Part shown: positions 2,421 through 41,181 of the stretch, in pieces
How positions within the stretch are numbered: the stretch's first letter is position 1
How the letters are laid out: every line of letters starts with the position of its first letter
IMG/VR virus record: IMGVR_UViG_3300005973_000002
Reading direction: 5' to 3' (one strand)
DNA length: 64,000 nt
Source of the DNA: a virus
Lineage: Duplodnaviria; Caudoviricetes
Notes under the pieces: generated by a model
What the model saw: the letters and a program-made list of their open reading frames with translations, nothing else
Told to the model about the DNA's origin: nothing
Database searches by the model: none
Program-made: the position numbers and the translations under genes

Positions 2421-5400
2421 TATTTATTTTTCTTATTGGTAGGGCTTATTTCATCTGCATATTGCCTGAGCAAATAAGCGACTCGCTCTATTTCTTCAGC
2501 ATAATTTGAAAGAGCTTCAAAGTCTTCTTCTTTGCTTTTCATCTCTCCAGCAAGAAAAAGTAATTCCTGGATACACTCTGATATGTTATCCACTTCTTTA
2601 AAGAGGCCGTTCTTGACTTCTTTATGGAGGAAGAATTTTGGAATCCACACAAAGGAACCAGTTGCGAGTGTGACTTTTACTCTAGTGTTGCTTTCATCTG
2701 TAACAAGAACAGCTTCGCCAAAATCTGACAAATCAAGACAAATACGTGTTTTATTTTCATGGAAACAGGGAATATCTTTATGTTGCCGCAATGTAAAAAC
2801 ACGTCCTATGAATGGTTTAAGATAAGGTTCATCTCTCTTCTTAGCAGGCATCCTAAATCCCAAAAAAAGCAATCAACAACGTTTGTTGACCATTGCTTAA
2901 ATATCCTGTGTTTTTACTGACAAAGAGGAAAAATTCTAATGCATCCAAAACCAAAAACTTATTTTCGTCTTAAGTGACAACGATTTACACTTGTCAGCTT
3001 GAATATAGATTCTTCTACCTCCCCAATCCATAAGCCACAATTCAAAGTTGTGATAACAGTGTTTATCGAGCAATGTGAGATATCGACCAACCGGCACGAA
3101 TACGTGGTCATTTGACCCAGAATGCAAAAATCCCCAGGCCCAAGCACCATCATCTTTGACTTGGTGAGTTACAAGTCCCAACTTTACGTGGAACCATACC
3201 CAAATTTTAAATAACCACTGTCGCATTATATTAGTTTTCACGCATATCATATTCGGCATTGTCGCACATGGACACACGTGCCTCAACATCAAAATGTGGG
3301 CTATAAATACGACGTCCACGGTACGTGAATTTTTCACGGACTTCATGCTCCATTGCAACCTTGCAAGCCTTCCAAGCTGTTTCTACGATTTCTGTGATAG
3401 TTGAATATGGCGACAAATACCACTTGCGACAATGCTGTGGGATGGGACCAGCCTCAGGATTCTCAACATCGATGTCCATGAAAACCCATTGAAGAAGAAA
3501 CCCGTCCCCCTTTTCCATGAGACGAAGCTCCCAACCCATAAATTGGATATTCTTTAAGATTATCTGAACTTCGTCAATACTCTTTCGTCGTTGAACTATG
3601 CTTGCCTCAAAAAATTTCGCTATAATGGTTGATAATGCTAGCGCCACGCTTGGCAAAATATTGCCGAATTTTAATATAAACCTCAGCGAGGTTATCATTG
3701 GTTGAGTTTAGTCCACCTCTCGAATCCAACCCATCGCTGATTTCAACCCACTCAACCGTAGAATCGTCAGGGTTTGGGATGCATTCTTCAGTGGAATAAA
3801 ATCCAGAAACATAAAGCCTGTCTGAACAGCCCACAACATGAACAATAACCTCTGTCGTGTCATAATCACCACCGGGTTGGGTAGAAGCAACCTTTTTGAC
3901 CTTGCTGATCTTGCTAAGCTCGTCGATAACCTCACTTGTCTTCCAGTAATACACAGTATCTCCTAAGGTATTCTTTAGTTAAGATCCTATTCTTAACAAG
4001 AAAATGCTCAAAATTTAAAGCAGAAGTAAAATAAACACCGTCATTGTAAATGACTCGTACCCAATTTGTAGCACCTAATTCAGATGCGCCAAGGTACATT
4101 ACCCAAGGCTGTCCTTCTATGGTTATGACGTTCGTAAATTTGCTTCTGATCTCACCTAACTTGCCAGGCGATGGTTCTTTAACCAAGGTAAACAATCTAC
4201 CTTGACCCATGTCGCCGAAGTGGCCGGTCATCTGATACAACTTTCCAGGCTTTAGGACATTGGTAATTTCACCAATAACAAAATCATCAATTTTACCAGA
4301 TGAGTGACTCACAGTAATTTACTCACACCAACTTGATGTCATAGATAGACAACTTTCCACCAGCAATTGGGATATCAATCAATTCAGTCTTGTCGGTCTT
4401 AATTCCAAGTGGCAAACGTTCATCTTTATCGGTTGGGATGTGGATTTTATCCTCAAGTGGGTGTTTGGTAACAATCATGGTTTTGTCTCTAGAACCTTGC
4501 ATGTCGTATCCGGCAAACATGCCAAACACATAATAGAAAGGATTCGGCACTGTAACTTTGTATCGAGAATCGTTTTCCCGAGCTTCCTTCCATGAATCGG
4601 CCACGAGCGATTCAAAGAAGTATTTTGGCATATAACGATATAGTCTCTGCCCATTCCATCCGGGACCGACGGGACCACTTGTTACTGTGTGCGGAAACCC
4701 AGGATTGTAACTAGGATCCATTTTCTGGACTTCCTTGAGTTTACGAACCTGCAAAGGCCCCTCGTAGGACAGTTCAGGATCTTCATGTTCAAACTTTACC
4801 CAATACTTCTGACCATAACCATTACGACGCTTAATCATAGCAAGCGTTGCGGGTTCACTGTGATCTTCCTGAGCTTCCGCAGAAATTGAAGTATCGTTGA
4901 CCACAGTGAAGTTTGCATAGTTGAAATCAGCAAGCTTTACCCAGAAACGTCCATAATTGTTTCTGTTTCCTTTGGCTTTAACCAAAGCTTGATCTGTAGT
5001 TTCGATAATTTTGAGCGTTACACTCGAAAATTCCTTAAGGCCCTTTCGAACATAAATGCGATCGACTTCAAGTTTTGTTCCAGCTGGAAGTGTTCTCGAA
5101 TAGGAATCAAGCTCGTTTTGCCAGCTATAACTGGTATTTCGACCATCGGCAAGTGCGACATCACTGTTGCGATGTTCAAGATAAAGCTCGAACGTCCAGT
5201 CTTTTTCGACTTTAAGCTCAGAGCCAAGTTCGGGAATAAATGCCTTCATGTCAAGACTCCAGGTATTTCTCTAGTTCAACCAGAACCTTGTTGGCAATTT
5301 CTTCTGCTGAATCATCTTCAACTTCATCAGCCAACGTAAGCTCATAGAAAACATCATCCCCTCCATGATCAAGGGTGATGTTATACTTTTCCTCAAGAGA

Positions 5401-32770: not shown

Positions 32771-33196
32771 CTAAGCAACATATACTAAACCATAATATTT
32801 GCCGACAGTTCTCTTGAACTTCCATTCGCCAAGCAAAACTCCATAAGTGCAGGCAGACTTTTGAAGAGCATGGAGAAAATCGGAATCACGAATATAAAAC
32901 AACTGTTTCGTTTCTGTATGTTCCAGAATTAACTGAGTGGTGGAATTGCAACTAATAAATCGTTCAACTTTGAAAGCGGCTTTGAATGGAGAATTATCTT
33001 TCCAGGTGACATTTAGATTATTATATCTTTTTCTGTTGACATAGTCAAAGTAACTAACGACGGAAACGTTCTTACCGCACGTCCACGGGACTCCCTTTTG
33101 GGTCCATGGGATTTGATAATCTTCACTTTTTTTATTCATTTGTTTCGAGCTGCCCCCTAACCATCCTATCTTTTCGACCTTTATATTTTCGGTCAT
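32771..33196 (-). CDS. Hypothetical protein, W-K-x-N-x-PFKA family (copy 1 of 3)
   Basis: WKDNSPFKAAF...GEWKF is shared with 36627-37019 and 37012-37422. Confidence 0.7.
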   Translation of the reverse strand: MTENIKVEKIGWLGGSSKQMNKKSEDYQIPWTQKGVPWTCGKNVSVVSYFDYVNRKRYNNLNVTWKDNSPFKAAFKVERFISCNSTTQLILEHTETKQLFYIRDSDFLHALQKSACTYGVLLGEWKFKRTVGKYYGLVYVA

Positions 33197-34022
33197 AGGA
33201 TTCTAACTGACGCAAATCCAAATTTGCATCCTTGCTTTTCATTGTTCCACCGCTCAGAAACAATTCAATCATTCTATCCTTTGTAAGAATTTTGGTTGTT
33301 TTGTCATCTTTCGAGGGACCCCATCCAAGCCTTGCCAAGAAATTAAGCATTGCATCAGGATCATATCCACTGTCAATATACAATTGAAATGTTGAAGCTT
33401 GTTCTCTTTTTGAGAGTTTTTTTCCCTGATGACGCAAAAGTCCAACGTGACTATATTTTGGCAAAACGCCGCCAAGGAGGTCATACAACAAAACCTGCTT
33501 TGCTGTATTTGTAATGTGGTCCACGCCTCGAATTATATGATTGATGTCCATTTCAATATCATCAACTACAGAAGCAAAATGATAAGTGGGACTACCGTCA
33601 GATTTGATCAATGTTAGATTATCAAACCCCCGAACATTGTCCGCCCGAATGGGAATGTTGCCAGCAATATCATCAACCCAATAACTTCTGGAAAGAAAAT
33701 CACCAACAAGATTTAAATGAACTCGCTTACCATCTCGAACGGCTTTGCCACTGTCTACCAGAAACGACACGGCAGCATCATAATGCTCCATTCTTTTACT
33801 CTGGTAGTCTAAACCATCCCAATCAAGCCCAAGCCACTCAAGGCTTTTCAAAAATTGGTCAGCCCATCTCTGCTCTGACCTTTCAAGATCGGTGTCATCA
33901 ATCCTAACAAAAAACTTACCACCAGAAGCTCTGGCGGCAAGCCAATTGAAATAAGCAGTTCTCATTGTACCCAAATGAGTAGGGCCTGTAGGTGAAGGTG
34001 CGATTCTAGTAAAAAACTTCAT
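33132..34022 (-). CDS. GluRS/GluQ-RS-like class I catalytic domain lacking the anticodon-binding domain
   Basis: TRIAPSPTGPTHLG (HIGH), RIDDTDLERS, PTYHFASVVDD, HIIRGVDH, KKLSKR (KMSKS), LNFLARLGW. It ends at about 296 aa, where the anticodon domain would begin. Confidence 0.9.
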   Translation of the reverse strand: MKFFTRIAPSPTGPTHLGTMRTAYFNWLAARASGGKFFVRIDDTDLERSEQRWADQFLKSLEWLGLDWDGLDYQSKRMEHYDAAVSFLVDSGKAVRDGKRVHLNLVGDFLSRSYWVDDIAGNIPIRADNVRGFDNLTLIKSDGSPTYHFASVVDDIEMDINHIIRGVDHITNTAKQVLLYDLLGGVLPKYSHVGLLRHQGKKLSKREQASTFQLYIDSGYDPDAMLNFLARLGWGPSKDDKTTKILTKDRMIELFLSGGTMKSKDANLDLRQLESYDRKYKGRKDRMVRGQLETNE

Positions 34023-35308
34023 ATTGCGCCACTTTGTCCAAAAAATGTCCAAGCTACATTTTCCCCGGAGAGTTTTGGTTCGCCTTCGTCGAAGGTATTT
34101 CTAATAGGCAACTCATGAACCTCTGCTACAACAGAGCAATGAATGGCTTGTGCATGATCAATAGCTACATCTAGACTATCACAAGGCCCTTGAAAATTTA
34201 AACCTTCGTAAGTATGCTCAAATACAAGGCAAAATAACATTATACCATCTTCAGATGGCAGAAATCTTCTTCTGTCATCCAGCATTCTCTGTCCTTAAAA
34301 AGGACCGTTGCTCCCAAATAATCATTTGGAAAATATATTTTTCCCCACTTGCCATACTTTTGGCCAACATACTTTGGAGAGTTGCAACTGTTTTTGATGG
34401 CCAAAACATACCATATCATTTTGAAAGATCAACAGGAATGCGAACCTTACGGAGATAGTCAGCAATTTGCTGAATGGCGTGTTCAACAACGCCTTCGGAC
34501 GGATTTGTGATCATATCCATCCTGAAGTGTTCTCCTGGGCCCTGAACACCCCAACTGCAAAGCATGAAAACATCATCGTCTTCCATAACGAATGAAATTC
34601 TACCGTGATTGGACTGCGGAAAATCAAATCCTTGATAGTAGACGATCATCTCTCCCTCGCCAATTTCAACATCACTATATTGCCTTGTTTCAGCAACACA
34701 TGAATATGTCCAAGAAAGACCTTGGCGGGCAAGATGTTTACATGCGATACCAATATATTCACATGTTTTATTATGATTCACGTTTTTCTCCAAACAACTG
34801 ATCATAATAAACAAACCCAATGAGTTCTTGTTTATCCTTTTCAAATTTGCCGCAATCCTGTTCCCATTTTTCCTTTAGCTCAATGTAATCTTCGTAAGCT
34901 TTATCTGATCGACCAGTAGGACCATAATGCAAATTTGGGACTTTTCCTTCATTATTATCTTTAAGTTTTTTATTTATAATACCTCTGCCGTTGAAGGGGA
35001 AATAATCTGTATGCAGCCCCATGTGCCCTTGCCATAAAGCATGTGTAGTAATTAAGCGAATTTTATCATCGTCTGTCAGTTTATAGACGTTGTATTTACG
35101 ATACCAGCCAAAATCATATTCTGTATCAATATCATCAGGGTCTTCGGCTACTGATACAAATTCTTCAAGCAAATCAAAATAGCATATTTCATTTTCATGT
35201 AACAAAACTCCACTAAGTGGTCCATCCCAATAATCCAAATGCCAGAGAATTTGCACGTTTTCAAGTTGTTTCATTTTTTTTGCTTTCCAATTTGTTTCAT
35301 CTTTTTAG

Positions 35309-35383
35309 CGAGACCTGTGGGATTTGAACCCACATCACTCCGGGTTAAAGCCGGCCGCATTACCAATTTTCTGCCAAGGTCCC
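35309..35383 (-). tRNA. tRNA with anticodon TTA (ochre-suppressor type; Gln/Glu-like loop)
   Basis: GGGACCT/AGGTCTC acceptor, G73, anticodon stem CCGG/CCGG, loop CT-TTA-AC (anticodon 35346-35348), T arm GTGGG-TTCAAAT-CCCAC. Confidence 0.85.
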
Positions 35384-35387
35384 ATTT

Positions 35388-35637
35388 GTGGCCGCCCCAG
35401 GAGTCGAACCTGGCTGTCCCACGACTGACGACCAAACTGTCCTATCTGCTTTGACGGGTCCTTCCCCCGTTTCTATGGCCACTTGAACTAACAACATTTC
35501 ATAATCTCATGGAAGCCACACACTTCCAGCAGGAATTGAACCTGCGCCGGGAACACTTGCCACTGTCGCCGAGCCAACTACTAGTTGTTATGTACGTCAT
35601 ATCGCCGTGCGGCAAAAACAGATAGGAACAGAACTTG
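35388..35637 (-). ncRNA. Unidentified structured RNA with two T-loop hairpins (YrlA/tRNA-like modules)
   Basis: A long-range helix of about 20 bp (35613-35637 with 35433-35453); GCAGG-TTCAATT-CCTGC stacked on TGGAAGT/GCTTCCA; CCAGG-TTCGACT-CCTGG; GTGGCC/GGCCAC. Confidence 0.6.
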
Positions 35638-35641
35638 TATG

Positions 35642-35998
35642 CTAACTTGTTATTTTTTTGTAACCCCTTCCTGCTACTTTCAAGTTTGCGCAAAGTTTAG
35701 CAGTTGCTTCACTTGGCTCGATTGTCAAGGCTGTGTACTGATTGATATCAGGCTCATAGAAAAGTGAATGCCTTAGTCCCTGGCTTTCGGTCAAGCAAAC
35801 AAATGCCTTCAATGCCGCTTCGTTTTTAACTCCCAAAACTACAATGGTGTTTGAATTAGTATACCACTTTCGCTCCTCTTCGGGGAAGTCGTGTGTAAAC
35901 TGATCCTTGGCATGAATGCTTTGTGCGATTTGATAGCCAGGCGAAATGTCCTGGCGAACCAATACATACATTTTCATTGTTGGTTGACTTTGCATCAT
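35642..35998 (-). CDS. Peptidyl-tRNA hydrolase 2 (PTH2)-like protein
   Basis: KMYVLVRQDISPGYQIAQSIHA, TIVVLGV, FYEPD, TALTIEP, LCANL. Confidence 0.75.
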   Translation of the reverse strand: MMQSQPTMKMYVLVRQDISPGYQIAQSIHAKDQFTHDFPEEERKWYTNSNTIVVLGVKNEAALKAFVCLTESQGLRHSLFYEPDINQYTALTIEPSEATAKLCANLKVAGRGYKKITS

Positions 35999-36456
35999 GC
36001 CACCTCACCGCTTTTATTGAGGATTTTAGTTACACGGCAAGAGACTTTAAATTTCTTAGGATTTTTCTCCCAACGAAAGATAACATTGTCGCCAGTCTTT
36101 AACCAATGAAGGATGTTGTCTTCATTGAACTCATTTTCAGACCAATAAACACGATAGCCGCCATAGATTATACAAATAGAAGCAATATTCCTAACAGCTT
36201 CATTGAGCTGCCAGTCATTAAAATAAAGTGACCTATTTGATTCAACGTCATCATACCGCTTACCCAACATTAGGGCATATGCTAGCTGGTGTAATCTCGA
36301 ATGCCAACCAAGAGATCGCTTTCTGTTCCACCCATAAGTTTTTCCTTCAAGGTGCTTAGAATTAATTTCTTTCTTTAGAATTCTACGAGACTCGTCGGTA
36401 AATCCATTAATAGCAGCTTTTAGCTTGTAAAGGTCTTTTTTCGTAAATGCCTTCAT
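35995..36456 (-). CDS. Conserved phage hypothetical protein heading the PTH2-like operon
   Basis: Strong SD (TTTAGGAGG) and the segment RSLGWHSRLHQLAYALMLGKRY; the stop overlaps the PTH2-like start. Confidence 0.7.
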   Translation of the reverse strand: MKAFTKKDLYKLKAAINGFTDESRRILKKEINSKHLEGKTYGWNRKRSLGWHSRLHQLAYALMLGKRYDDVESNRSLYFNDWQLNEAVRNIASICIIYGGYRVYWSENEFNEDNILHWLKTGDNVIFRWEKNPKKFKVSCRVTKILNKSGEVA

Positions 36457-36464
36457 TTTATCAT

Positions 36465-36564
36465 CCTCCTAAATTTGTTATAAAGTAACACACCAACTTT
36501 TTGGTAAAACAAAGTCGGTTTTAGGAGGTGGGCCTCGGTTATATATTTACCAGAAATGCAACAT
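36465..36564 (-). promoter_or_regulatory. Leader peptide / translational attenuator: MLHFW*IYNRGPPPK... overlapping an anti-SD three-way junction
   Basis: SD AGGA lies 7 nt before ATG 36564, with TAA at 36547-36549. Codons CCT CCT AAA (36520-36528) pair perfectly with TTTAGGAGG (36465-36473). P2 is ACCGACTTT/AAAGTTGGT and P3 is TGTTA/TAACA. Confidence 0.68.
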
Positions 36565-36626
36565 GATTATATCCTGTGCTTGTGAAAGGAAAATGTTTAA
36601 ATAAACACTTTCCAGCCAAGGTAGCG

Positions 36627-37019
36627 TTAGGCTAAGCAAACACTTAGGTATCGTCCTGATTTACGGAAAACCCATTCACCCACAAACACACCAGCAATAG
36701 CCGGCAGCGTTTTAAGTAGTTGAACAAAGTCTTCTTCCTTCATGACATATTCATAACCGTTTTCGGTATCATGAAGAACTGCTTGACAACTCGTACTCTG
36801 GTTTGAACTGTAAAGATGCGAAAGACTGAGCCCTGCCTTAAACGGCTTGTTTTCTTTCCATTCAATTGGTTCGGATTTGCGAATGTAGCCATACCCTCCA
36901 ATATTTGGATGCGCCATGTCGCAAGTTTCAGAATCTTTTTTGGGGCATTGACGTGGAACACATCCATGCTTTCCTACCACGTGAGGAACCAAAAAATTTT
37001 TATCGTCTTTTTCAGTCAT
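36627..37019 (-). CDS. Hypothetical protein, W-K-x-N-x-PFKA family (copy 2)
   Basis: EPIEWKENKPFKAGL...GEWVF; the start ATG overlaps the upstream TGA (ATGACTGA). Confidence 0.75.
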   Translation of the reverse strand: MTEKDDKNFLVPHVVGKHGCVPRQCPKKDSETCDMAHPNIGGYGYIRKSEPIEWKENKPFKAGLSLSHLYSSNQSTSCQAVLHDTENGYEYVMKEEDFVQLLKTLPAIAGVFVGEWVFRKSGRYLSVCLA

Positions 37020-37422
37020 TGTTAAATTCATTAGCCTTTTCGGCAGGAACTATTGAAAGAAAGCCACCATAACTATGAAAAACCCATTCGCCAAGACAAA
37101 CACCCATAATCCACGTTGTTTTATCCATCATTTCATTGAAAAGATCTTCGCCAACATAATAAGTGGCCTCTGTTTCCGTATTTCTCATCAAGAACTGAAC
37201 TGACGAACGTTTGTTTACAACCCTATCAAATCTCAGAGCGGCTTTGAACGGCTTATTTTTCCTCCACTCAATTGGCTCGCCATCGGCTCGTTTGTTGATG
37301 GTCCAATCGTATCTTCCAGGCCAATGTGTTTATTTTCGCTTGGGGCGTCGCCAAGGAACAGAACCATCTGGGTAAAATGGAATTTCATCCTCATAAGGAT
37401 TTTTGAGCTTTCTATTTGTCAT
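37012..37422 (-). CDS. Hypothetical protein, W-K-x-N-x-PFKA family (copy 3), with an in-frame TAA at 37330-37332
   Basis: MTNRK...RRPKRK*THWPG...EPIEWRKNKPFKAALRF...GEWVFH; 137 codons, matching the length of its paralogs. Not in the ORF track. Confidence 0.85.
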
Positions 37423-37810
37423 CACTATTCTTTTTCAGTATTAAGTTTAGCGATAAGTGGATCATTAGGGCCAAGATATTCAACCAATTTATCTGGCCTT
37501 GCAAGCAGCCATTGATCACTCGTGATTGGCTTTCCTTCACATTCTGGTGGAAAAATTTCTATTTGTGGACAGTTGCCCCAATCTACATCAGCTTCGGAAA
37601 TATATCCCCATCCATATTCCGTGCCCTCCCAACCAGGATCAAAAAATATTTTTGTGGAATCTTCTACGTTAACAACACCCCATTCATGTTGGCCAAAGTA
37701 TACTTGGACATGCAATTCATCTTCATGCTTGTGAATTGGACCATGTTCATGCCAGTTTGCTTTGGGGTGTGCCCTAAGCAAATCTTCTTATGATTTATAA
37801 ACCTTTACTT

Positions 37811-40829: not shown

Positions 40830-41181
40830 TGGACCCGATCGGAATTGAACCGATGTCCTCAAGATCGCCTAAAAAAACTTCTACGTTACCTAGTTTGATT
40901 TTCAGATTACCGGTCCGAGGTATCAGACAACCAACCGGGTTCTTTCATTTGAAATCTTGATCAGACAGCCAATAGAAATCTAACTCTAGTCTAATCCAGT
41001 CCTAATAACGACGCCTTATAGAATGCAAGGACACTCAAGCTATAAGACGGCTCTCATCAAGCAGCGAGAGCAAGAGGTGCATTGTCTGCATTTATAATCG
41101 TTTATTGGATTTAAGTGGTTCTAAACACCCACCGTAACGCCATTTTTTCTTCTTACCCCAAGTCGAAACCAGTACGGGCCC
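40830..41181 (-). ncRNA. ssrA: tmRNA (352 nt), tag peptide ADNAPLALAA
   Basis: 5' GGGCCCGTACTGGTTTCGAC; acceptor with G3.U70; ATAAAT then GCA GAC AAT GCA CCT CTT GCT CTC GCT GCT TGA (41057-41089); 3' GGAC-ATCGG-TTCAATT-CCGAT-CGGGTCC-A. Confidence 0.95.

What the first reader, a model, noticed from the sequence alone, without database searches (positions are those of the whole stretch)
36456..36564. UAA-gated RGPP arrest-peptide leader overlapping an anti-Shine-Dalgarno three-way junction
Seen: SD-ATG TTG CAT TTC TGG TAA ATA TAT AAC CGA GGC CCA CCT CCT AAA reads MLHFW*IYNRGPPPK. The Pro-Pro-Lys codons are the perfect 9-nt complement of the downstream RBS TTTAGGAGG, and two more helices complete a three-way junction. 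Established: RAGP/RAPP/RGPP motifs (SecM, ApdA and ApdP class) and PPP stall ribosomes. Inference: a ribosome that reads through UAA and stalls at RGPP would free the RBS, so the leader would sense termination failure or suppressor activity.
Basis: partly seen in the sequence, partly recalled or inferred. Interest (0 to 1): 0.88.

Follow-up and report, generated by a model that had tools for sequence, protein, structure and literature searches.

The report
Stop-gated RGPP leader in a jumbo phage
A short leader in front of a phage peptidyl-tRNA hydrolase operon carries a conserved in-frame UAA stop followed by a ribosome-arresting RGPP motif that lies on the sequence masking the next gene's ribosome-binding site. 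The same phages all carry a UAA-reading suppressor tRNA, so the leader looks like a natural sensor of stop-codon read-through.

Summary

On the minus strand at 36575-36454 lie:
- an AGGA Shine-Dalgarno (SD) sequence
- the mini-ORF MLHFW followed by UAA
- in-frame IYN-RGPPP
- a 9-nt anti-SD (CCUCCUAAA) that pairs perfectly with the SD of gene X
- two hairpins

Eleven distinct homologous leaders come from related uncultured phages whose X proteins are only 25-65% identical. All eleven keep:
- ATG, then 4-9 codons, then TAA followed by A
- 3, 4 or 7 in-frame codons
- R(G)PP, with an anti-SD within reach of a ribosome stalled there

Every nucleotide change in the RGPP codons is synonymous. The anti-SD shifts relative to RGPP, so RGPP is conserved as peptide rather than as RNA.

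Every locus with enough flank has tRNA(UUA) just downstream of X-PTH2. A neighbouring gene has an in-frame TAA where orthologues have GAA. The genome is not TAA-recoded.

Most likely mechanism (about 0.6): read-through by the ochre suppressor leads to an RGP/P arrest, which frees the SD so that X and PTH2 are translated.

The scan holds no similar finding on other DNA.

The parts
36572..36575 (-). AGGA Shine-Dalgarno-like element 7 nt before the leader ATG
   Evidence: AGGA or GAGG lies 5-8 nt upstream of the leader ATG in 7 of 11 distinct leaders. It is weak or absent in L014, L036 and L040, and L039 is cut by the contig end.
36547..36564 (-). Mini-ORF ATG-TTG-CAT-TTC-TGG (MLHFW) ending in the gating stop TAA (36549-36547), which is followed by A
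   Evidence: All 11 leaders have TAA followed by A. The peptide is M-x-[HP]-F-[WL] in 10 leaders and MLTYS in L036. TTC/TTT and CAT/CAC changes are synonymous.
36538..36546 (-). Three in-frame spacer codons (IYN) between the stop and the arrest motif
   Evidence: The spacer is 3, 4 or 7 codons, always in frame and never containing a stop. Replacements are conservative: I/K/N, Y/F, N/S/I.
36523..36537 (-). RGPPP codons. The RGPP arrest core is 36537-36526. Predicted stall: Pro1 (36531-36529) in the P site and Pro2 (36528-36526) in the A site.
   Evidence: RGPP is present in 10 of 11 leaders (RPPP in L042). Arg uses CGA/CGT/AGA, Gly uses all four codons, Pro1 uses all four codons. This is the only RGPP in six frames of the window. 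Arrest geometry comes from PMC10951233 and motif strength from PMC12992588.
36520..36528 (-). Anti-SD strand CCUCCUAAA
   Evidence: It forms 9 perfect pairs with 36473-36465. The extension covaries among relatives: AAA:UUU, GUU:AAU, CAU:AUG, AUC:GAU.
36492..36519 (-). Hairpin P2 of the three-way junction
   Evidence: A hairpin sits at this position in all leaders folded. It is replaced by a UUCG-type hairpin in L007 and L014.
36476..36490 (-). Hairpin P3 of the three-way junction
   Evidence: A short hairpin is predicted here in each of six leaders folded independently.
36465..36473 (-). SD strand UUUAGGAGG of gene X (start ATG at 36456-36454)
   Evidence: once the anti-SD is removed, as under a stalled ribosome, the rest folds at only -8.9 kcal/mol (z = +0.3) and the centroid structure leaves the SD unpaired.
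35995..36456 (-). Gene X, 153 aa, the first regulated gene. All-helical, function unknown.
   Evidence: no family match; 123 representative homologues. AF2 model with pLDDT 92; no specific fold match.
35642..35998 (-). PTH2-type peptidyl-tRNA hydrolase. Its start overlaps the stop of X (ATGA).
   Evidence: PF01981, E = 1.3e-8. X and PTH2 are adjacent in every related locus.
35308..35383 (-). Ochre suppressor tRNA, anticodon UUA, the proposed input of the leader
   Evidence: ARAGORN. Rfam tRNA, 54 bits; the tRNA bodies diverge but the C-U-UUA-A loop is invariant. It is present downstream of PTH2 in L009, L002-4 (two copies), L007, L035, L036-38 and L040.
37012..37425 (-). Supporting evidence only: a 137-codon gene interrupted by one in-frame TAA (37332-37330), followed by A
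   Evidence: Orthologues have GAA (L011, L003), CAA (L035) or AGT (L007) at that codon. The same TAA is in L009. It is the only such split gene on the coding strand, and none is split by TAG or TGA.

Best explanation
The 170-nt region in front of gene X is a translated regulatory leader. Steps (2), (3) and (4) below are inferred; the anatomy and its conservation are shown.

(1) By default the SD of X is locked in an 8-15 bp helix with an anti-SD. Ribosomes that translate the 5-codon mini-ORF terminate at UAA about 20 nt short of that helix, so X and PTH2 stay off.

(2) When UAA is decoded, most plausibly by the phage's own tRNA(UUA) encoded just downstream of PTH2, the ribosome runs 3-7 codons further into RGPP.

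[quoted passage not shown] The nascent chain is only 13-17 residues and has nothing outside the tunnel to pull it free, so the arrest should be long-lived.

(4) The arrested ribosome physically covers the anti-SD. The SD, 55-70 nt downstream, becomes free, and X and the coupled PTH2 are translated.

The leader therefore reports UAA read-through and licenses a peptidyl-tRNA hydrolase module when suppression is active.
For: Architecture:
- It is conserved in 11 distinct leaders whose X proteins are 25-65% identical.
- All have TAA followed by A.
- The distance from TAA to the Arg codon is 9, 12 or 21 nt, always in frame.
- The distance from the leader ATG to the main ATG is 105-124 nt.

RGPP is conserved as peptide:
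- At least 9 substitutions in the four codons are all synonymous.
- The anti-SD coincides with Pro2-Pro3 in the window, with Pro1-Pro2 in L035, and starts 0-6 nt after the second Pro codon in L040 and L039. RGPP is therefore not a by-product of pairing.

No in-frame start codon lies between the TAA and RGPP in any leader, so only read-through can deliver ribosomes.

The SD:anti-SD helix is supported by:
- covariation
- control windows
- folding with and without the anti-SD

Suppressor tRNA and read-through:
- tRNA(UUA) is present in every sufficiently long relative with an invariant anticodon loop.
- An in-frame TAA is tolerated in a neighbouring gene at a Glu codon of its orthologues.

Literature:
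- RGPP gives the most robust arrest of the RAPP-like cores and is refractory to EF-P (PMC12992588).
- The stall geometry is known (PMC10951233).
Against: - There is no experimental or expression evidence. The phage is uncultured (hypersaline lake metagenomes) and no RNA run holds the sequence.
- The mini-ORF SD is weak or missing in 3-4 leaders, and in the window it overlaps a TATAAT-like hexamer.
- L042 has RPPP rather than RGPP.
- TAA is also an ordinary stop for about 37% of the window's genes, so suppression must be partial.
- It is not known how the arrest is resolved or why PTH2 should depend on read-through.
- The leaders are homologous, so the counts are not independent trials.
Confidence: 0.6

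Rival explanations
1. Same stop-gated arrest leader, but the signal is general failure of termination at UAA rather than the phage suppressor tRNA. Examples are release-factor depletion or inhibition during infection, or near-cognate read-through.
For: The anatomy reports only that UAA was read through, not by what. The phage also carries tmRNA and PTH2, which is a ribosome-rescue theme.
Against: tRNA(UUA) co-occurs with the leader in every locus long enough to tell. The stop is always TAA, matching that anticodon. Near-cognate read-through of UAA is normally very rare (general knowledge).
Confidence: 0.13
2. An RNA-only SD-sequestering element, such as a thermometer or a target of a protein or small ligand. 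The mini-ORF, the stop and RGPP would be conserved for RNA-level reasons and not translated as one peptide.
For: The anti-SD:SD helix and the junction are the best-supported features. CCUCC must be conserved for pairing anyway.
Against: - The substitutions are synonymous, including CGA/AGA/CGT and all four Gly codons.
- Indels are in frame.
- RGPP stays when the anti-SD moves.
- A candidate GAGG/CCUC hairpin is lost in L035 and L040.
- No conserved pairing partner exists for the invariant mini-ORF block.
- No Rfam family matches.
Confidence: 0.1
3. The mini-ORF itself is the regulator, through a termination pause or peptidyl-tRNA drop-off at FW-UAA, as with minigenes in Pth-limited cells. RGPP would be only a backstop that halts stray read-through ribosomes.
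For: A 5-codon ORF with its own SD directly upstream of a pth gene recalls the lambda bar minigenes, whose toxicity depends on Pth (general knowledge). The F-W before the stop is conserved.
Against: A ribosome at UAA reaches only about 15 nt downstream, short of the anti-SD at +24 (coordinates), so it cannot open the helix. This model also gives no reason for the strict in-frame conservation of RGPP.
Confidence: 0.1
4. Chance or non-functional intergenic conservation.
For: The overall folding z-scores of whole leaders are modest (-0.4 to -2.3).
Against: Conservation of the leader exceeds that of the flanking protein, and the architecture is kept across leaders with little nucleotide identity.
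Confidence: 0.03

Closest known systems
RAPP/RGPP-type arrest peptides (ApdA, ApdP, ApcA, SecM class; Streptomyces RGPP uORFs) - PMC7897499, PMC10951233, PMC12992588
   Same: An R-[A/G]-P-P core near the end of a small upstream ORF. [quoted passage not shown]
   Different: - The ORF is interrupted by a conserved in-frame UAA.
- The nascent chain is only 13-17 residues and has no signal or membrane segment, so no pulling-force release is possible.
- The regulated genes are a PTH2 module of a phage, not Sec/YidC or metal-homeostasis genes.
- The input would be stop-codon decoding.
PepNL of E. coli (PMC11890864)
   Same: A very short leader peptide in which stop-codon read-through by a tRNA decides whether the ribosome is arrested.
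   Different: The logic is inverted. [quoted passage not shown] Here termination is the default and read-through leads to the arrest. PepNL uses a cellular tRNA as a metabolite proxy; here a dedicated suppressor tRNA is encoded next to the operon.
prfB (RF2) autoregulatory in-frame UGA with +1 frameshift (general knowledge; reviewed in PMC5009743)
   Same: A conserved early in-frame stop codon acts as a sensor of how efficiently that stop is decoded. It controls a translation-termination-related gene.
   Different: prfB needs a frameshift and senses RF2. Here the downstream signal is in the same frame, works through arrest and SD unmasking, and the regulated gene lies in a separate downstream cistron.
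Phage suppressor tRNAs and stop-codon recoding in phages (for example TAG-recoded gut phages, PMC10607447)
   Same: A phage-encoded tRNA that reads a stop codon, with accompanying translation genes.
   Different: This genome is not recoded. TAA ends about 37% of its genes, and treating TAA as sense does not lengthen ORFs more than TAG or TGA does. UAA-reading suppressors have not, to my knowledge, been tied to a regulatory leader.

Membership tests
RAPP-like (RAPP/RGPP) ribosome arrest peptides | C-terminal R-[A/G]-P-P core | tested here: met
   RGPP is present in 10 of 11 distinct leaders and RPPP in L042. It is conserved through synonymous codons.
RAPP-like (RAPP/RGPP) ribosome arrest peptides | Motif lies in a small uORF immediately upstream of the regulated gene, and the stall site can open an RBS-masking structure | tested here: met
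   The anti-SD starts 0 to 6 nt beyond the A-site Pro codon (it overlaps the P site in L035). SD:anti-SD duplexes are -8.8 to -22 kcal/mol.
RAPP-like (RAPP/RGPP) ribosome arrest peptides | Continuous ORF from start codon to arrest motif | tested here: not met
   An invariant in-frame TAA lies between the only start codon and RGPP in all 11 leaders.
RAPP-like (RAPP/RGPP) ribosome arrest peptides | N-terminal signal or TM segment that allows force-dependent release (monitoring substrate) | tested here: not met
   The nascent chain at the stall is 13-17 residues and lies entirely inside the exit tunnel.
RAPP-like (RAPP/RGPP) ribosome arrest peptides | Demonstrated elongation arrest (toeprint or peptidyl-tRNA) | not testable with these tools
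   This needs in vitro translation.
Programmed stop-codon read-through element | Conserved in-frame stop with selection on the downstream peptide in the same frame | tested here: met
   TAA is invariant. Indels are multiples of three, and changes downstream are synonymous or conservative.
Programmed stop-codon read-through element | A decoding agent for that stop is available | tested here: met
   tRNA(UUA) with a canonical U33/A37 loop lies in the same gene string in all loci with enough flank.
Programmed stop-codon read-through element | Read-through product observed | not testable with these tools
   No proteomic or ribosome-profiling data exist, and no RNA run holds the locus.
Riboswitch or other known cis-regulatory RNA family | Match to a curated covariance model | tested here: not met
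   No Rfam hit falls in 36457-36626 at E up to 5.
PTH2 peptidyl-tRNA hydrolase (regulated gene) | Pfam PF01981 above the gathering score | tested here: met
   35.5 bits against a cut-off of 23. The score is below the NCBIfam equivalog cut-offs, so this is a divergent member.

The most novel reading that the evidence does not exclude
A self-contained phage read-through circuit. The phage's ochre suppressor tRNA may be charged with Glu by the adjacent GluRS catalytic core, which lacks an anticodon-binding domain. The tRNA is sensed by a stop-gated RGPP arrest leader that switches on an unknown helical protein and a peptidyl-tRNA hydrolase. This would be the first natural regulatory element whose input is suppressor-tRNA activity.
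Probability: 0.5. Interest if true: 0.92.

Novelty: new variant of a known kind. Interest (0 to 1): 0.85.

Why it matters
Arrest peptides are known as sensors of secretion, metabolites or antibiotics. None is known to be gated by a stop codon so that it reports decoding of that stop.

If this reading is true, the leader explains what standard-code phages do with suppressor tRNAs. It links suppression to peptidyl-tRNA recycling and tmRNA, and defines a minimal RGPP arrest peptide of about 14 residues. It would also supply a compact natural part for reporting nonsense suppression.

The eleven natural variants already form a mutational series, with different spacers, different anti-SD registers and one RPPP version. 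They can be tested directly in cell-free translation.

Tried and rejected
- **Genome-wide TAA recoding: rejected.** Stops of 110 likely genes are TGA 46, TAA 41, TAG 23. Reading TAA as sense lengthens ORFs no more than TAG or TGA does.
- **Rfam:** nothing in the leader.
- **Nucleotide search of cultured phages:** no match.
- **X protein against cultured phages:** no match.
- **Pattern scans of IMG/VR and JGI metagenomes** for the leader core returned one true relative (L001 = L031). All other hits were chance matches inside coding sequence, for example the GGPPPG motif of dehydrogenases.
- **More distant X homologues** were not found in IMG/VR.
- **GAGG/CCUC 'anti-anti-SD' hairpin** as an RNA-level reason for RGPP: not conserved in L035 and L040.
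- **UGGUAAA pairing with the P2 loop** occurs in the window only and is not conserved.
- **Initiation at AUA/AUU after the stop:** four leaders have AAG, AAA or AAC there.
- **X function:** no Pfam, PHROG or NCBIfam match, no Atlas match, and only generic helical-hairpin fold matches with Z up to 6.4.
- **X-PTH2 complex prediction:** no verdict.
- **Mycobacteriophage PTH2 loci (Alice, Myrna):** no homologous leader, and gp149 is not an X homologue.
- **Relaxed ARAGORN call of an intron-containing tRNA-Gln at 35384-35641:** not credible.

Full report
**Context**

The window is part of a jumbo phage genome. Almost all genes are on the minus strand, and earlier notes place further windows more than 150 kb away. 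The DNA is held in hypersaline-lake metagenomes. No whole genome is available.

The finding sits in a translation-gene string. In transcription order this string holds:
- tmRNA at 40830-41181
- two paralogous small genes, one of them with an in-frame TAA
- the 170-nt leader
- gene X (35995-36456)
- a PTH2 peptidyl-tRNA hydrolase (35642-35998), whose start overlaps the stop of X
- about 260 nt of unidentified structured RNA
- a tRNA with anticodon UUA (35308-35383)
- further on, a GluRS catalytic core (33132-34052)

**The observation**

- AGGA, then 7 nt, then ATG TTG CAT TTC TGG TAA
- ATA TAT AAC
- CGA GGC CCA CCT CCT AAA

CCUCCUAAA (36528-36520) is the perfect complement of UUUAGGAGG (36473-36465), which is the SD of X. 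Folding gives that helix closing a three-way junction with two hairpins. The junction segment alone folds at -24.8 kcal/mol with z = -3.2. Without the anti-SD the remainder is no more stable than shuffled sequence, and the SD is open in the centroid structure.

**Relatives**

X has few close homologues and 123 representative homologues by profile search. Fetching their contigs gave 11 distinct leaders. Their X proteins are 25-65% identical to the window's. X and PTH2 are adjacent in every locus.

The closer leaders align at the nucleotide level and are better conserved than the protein. The distant ones (L035, L036, L039, L040, L042) share little sequence but have the same plan:
- a start codon
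- 4 to 9 codons
- TAA followed by A
- 3, 4 or 7 in-frame codons
- R(G)PP
- an anti-SD
- two hairpins
- the SD and the X start

The leader ATG lies 105-124 nt before the X ATG.

**Is RGPP read as protein?**

Across the 11 leaders:
- Arg is CGA, CGT or AGA.
- Gly is GGC, GGT, GGG or GGA.
- The first Pro is CCA, CCC, CCG or CCT.
- The second Pro is CCT or CCG.

All first and second codon positions are otherwise invariant. That is at least nine substitutions, all synonymous.

The anti-SD is not fixed relative to the motif:
- It is Pro2-Pro3 in the window.
- It is Pro1-Pro2 in L035.
- It starts right after the second Pro in L040.
- It starts 4 nt after the second Pro in L039.

RGPP therefore cannot be a by-product of pairing. 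A possible GAGG/CCUC hairpin is lost in L035 and L040.

The residues around the stop also change like codons:
- TTC/TTT and CAT/CAC are synonymous.
- ATA/ATT is synonymous.
- Y/F and N/S are conservative replacements.

All length changes between the start, the stop and RGPP are multiples of three. RGPP occurs nowhere else in any frame of the 64-kb window. This fits the reported depletion of the motif from proteomes (PMC12992588).

**How can ribosomes reach RGPP?**

In no leader is there an in-frame start between the TAA and RGPP. The codon after the stop is ATA or ATT in seven leaders but AAG, AAA or AAC in four. The motif is in frame with the upstream ATG, so no frameshift is needed. Read-through of UAA is the only simple route.

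**Is there something that reads UAA?**

Yes. ARAGORN and Rfam call a tRNA with anticodon UUA 1 kb downstream. One or two such tRNAs lie just downstream of PTH2 in every relative whose contig reaches that far: L009, L002/3/4, L007, L035, L036/37/38 and L040. Their bodies have diverged, but the C-U-UUA-A loop is invariant.

The genome is not recoded. TAA ends 41 of 110 likely genes, and reading it as sense gains nothing special.

There is one further sign that suppression is real. The same allele is in a second metagenome (L009). It is the only gene on the coding strand split in this way, and none is split by TAG or TGA.

**Mechanism**

[quoted passage not shown] RGPP gives the most robust arrest in several contexts and is not relieved by EF-P (PMC12992588).

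Applied to this leader:
- The A-site codon is the first triplet of the anti-SD.
- In every variant the anti-SD core lies within about 15 nt of the P site, so a stalled ribosome would hold it.
- A ribosome terminating at UAA ends about 9 nt short of the anti-SD.

The default state is therefore off, and read-through followed by arrest turns it on. The strength of the arrest could turn rare read-through events into sustained opening of the SD.

All of this is inference from anatomy plus published properties of the motif. I put it at about 0.6. A further 0.13 goes to the same device responding to termination failure in general.

**What is regulated**

PTH2 is a divergent but significant member of PF01981. 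X gives a confident all-helical model (pLDDT 92) with no informative fold match and no family. A complex prediction for X with PTH2 gave no verdict.

Why a hydrolase should be tied to suppression is not shown. A reasonable guess is that ochre suppression, and the arrest itself, raise the load of peptidyl-tRNA and non-stop complexes. The phage meets that load with its own PTH2 and tmRNA.

**Comparison with known systems**

The element works like a RAPP/RGPP arrest leader, but it fails two features of that class: an uninterrupted ORF and a force-sensing N-terminal segment.

PepNL is the nearest case in which read-through interacts with arrest, and there the logic is inverted (PMC11890864). The prfB gene uses an early in-frame stop as a sensor but works through frameshifting.

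Literature searches for suppressor tRNA together with leader or arrest peptides in phages found nothing comparable. The scan's own notes hold nothing similar on other DNA.

I class it as a new variant of a known kind, with a new type of input.

Noticed in passing
window 33132-34052 (-): A 306-aa protein matches only the catalytic core of bacterial glutamate-tRNA ligase (263 bits, model positions up to 315 of 470) and lacks an anticodon-binding domain. It lies in the same string as tRNA(UUA). The one in-frame TAA found sits at a Glu (GAA) codon of orthologues, so it may charge the suppressor with Glu.
   Followed up: partly
window 35384-35641 (-): About 260 nt between PTH2 and tRNA(UUA) carry two T-arm-like motifs (GGTTCAATTCC, GGTTCGACTCC) and a weak mascRNA/tRNA-like Rfam hit, but no credible tRNA call. 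L007 has a 98-nt odd 'tRNA-Thr' at the same place.
   Followed up: partly
window 37012-37425 (-): A gene with one in-frame TAA (37332-37330), a paralogue of the next gene at 36627-37031. Orthologues are uninterrupted, and the same TAA is in L009.
   Followed up: yes
window 40830-41181 (-); L036 2411-2768: A phage-encoded tmRNA (tag ADNAPLALAA). In the L036 group the tmRNA gene lies only about 230 nt upstream of the leader.
   Followed up: no
L002 2999-3859, L004 1398-2237, L005 372-1211: A GIY-YIG homing-endonuclease gene is inserted immediately 5' of the leader's AGGA in some otherwise near-identical relatives and is absent in L003. These copies also carry a 1-nt deletion just before the SD of X.
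   Followed up: no
L044 (Mycobacterium phage Alice) 2489-3185; L045 (Myrna) 2492-3049: In cluster C mycobacteriophages the PTH2 gene is followed closely by a tRNA with anticodon CUA (amber suppressor). Its GTG start is directly preceded by an in-frame ATG/GTG-TAG. This is a second, unrelated pairing of PTH2 with a suppressor tRNA and its matching stop codon. It may be coincidence within a large tRNA array.
   Followed up: partly
window 35995-36456 (-): X gives a high-confidence helical model (pLDDT 92) with no fold or family match. It has over 100 representative homologues, mostly 110-170 aa.
   Followed up: yes
window, whole: TAA ends only about 37% of likely genes (TGA 42%) in a 40% G+C genome. 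X ends in TGA and PTH2 in TAG. This may be avoidance of the suppressed stop.
   Followed up: no
L003 5072-5146 and 5569-5643: Two clearly different tRNA(UUA) genes occur in one phage, flanking a 127-aa ORF.
   Followed up: no
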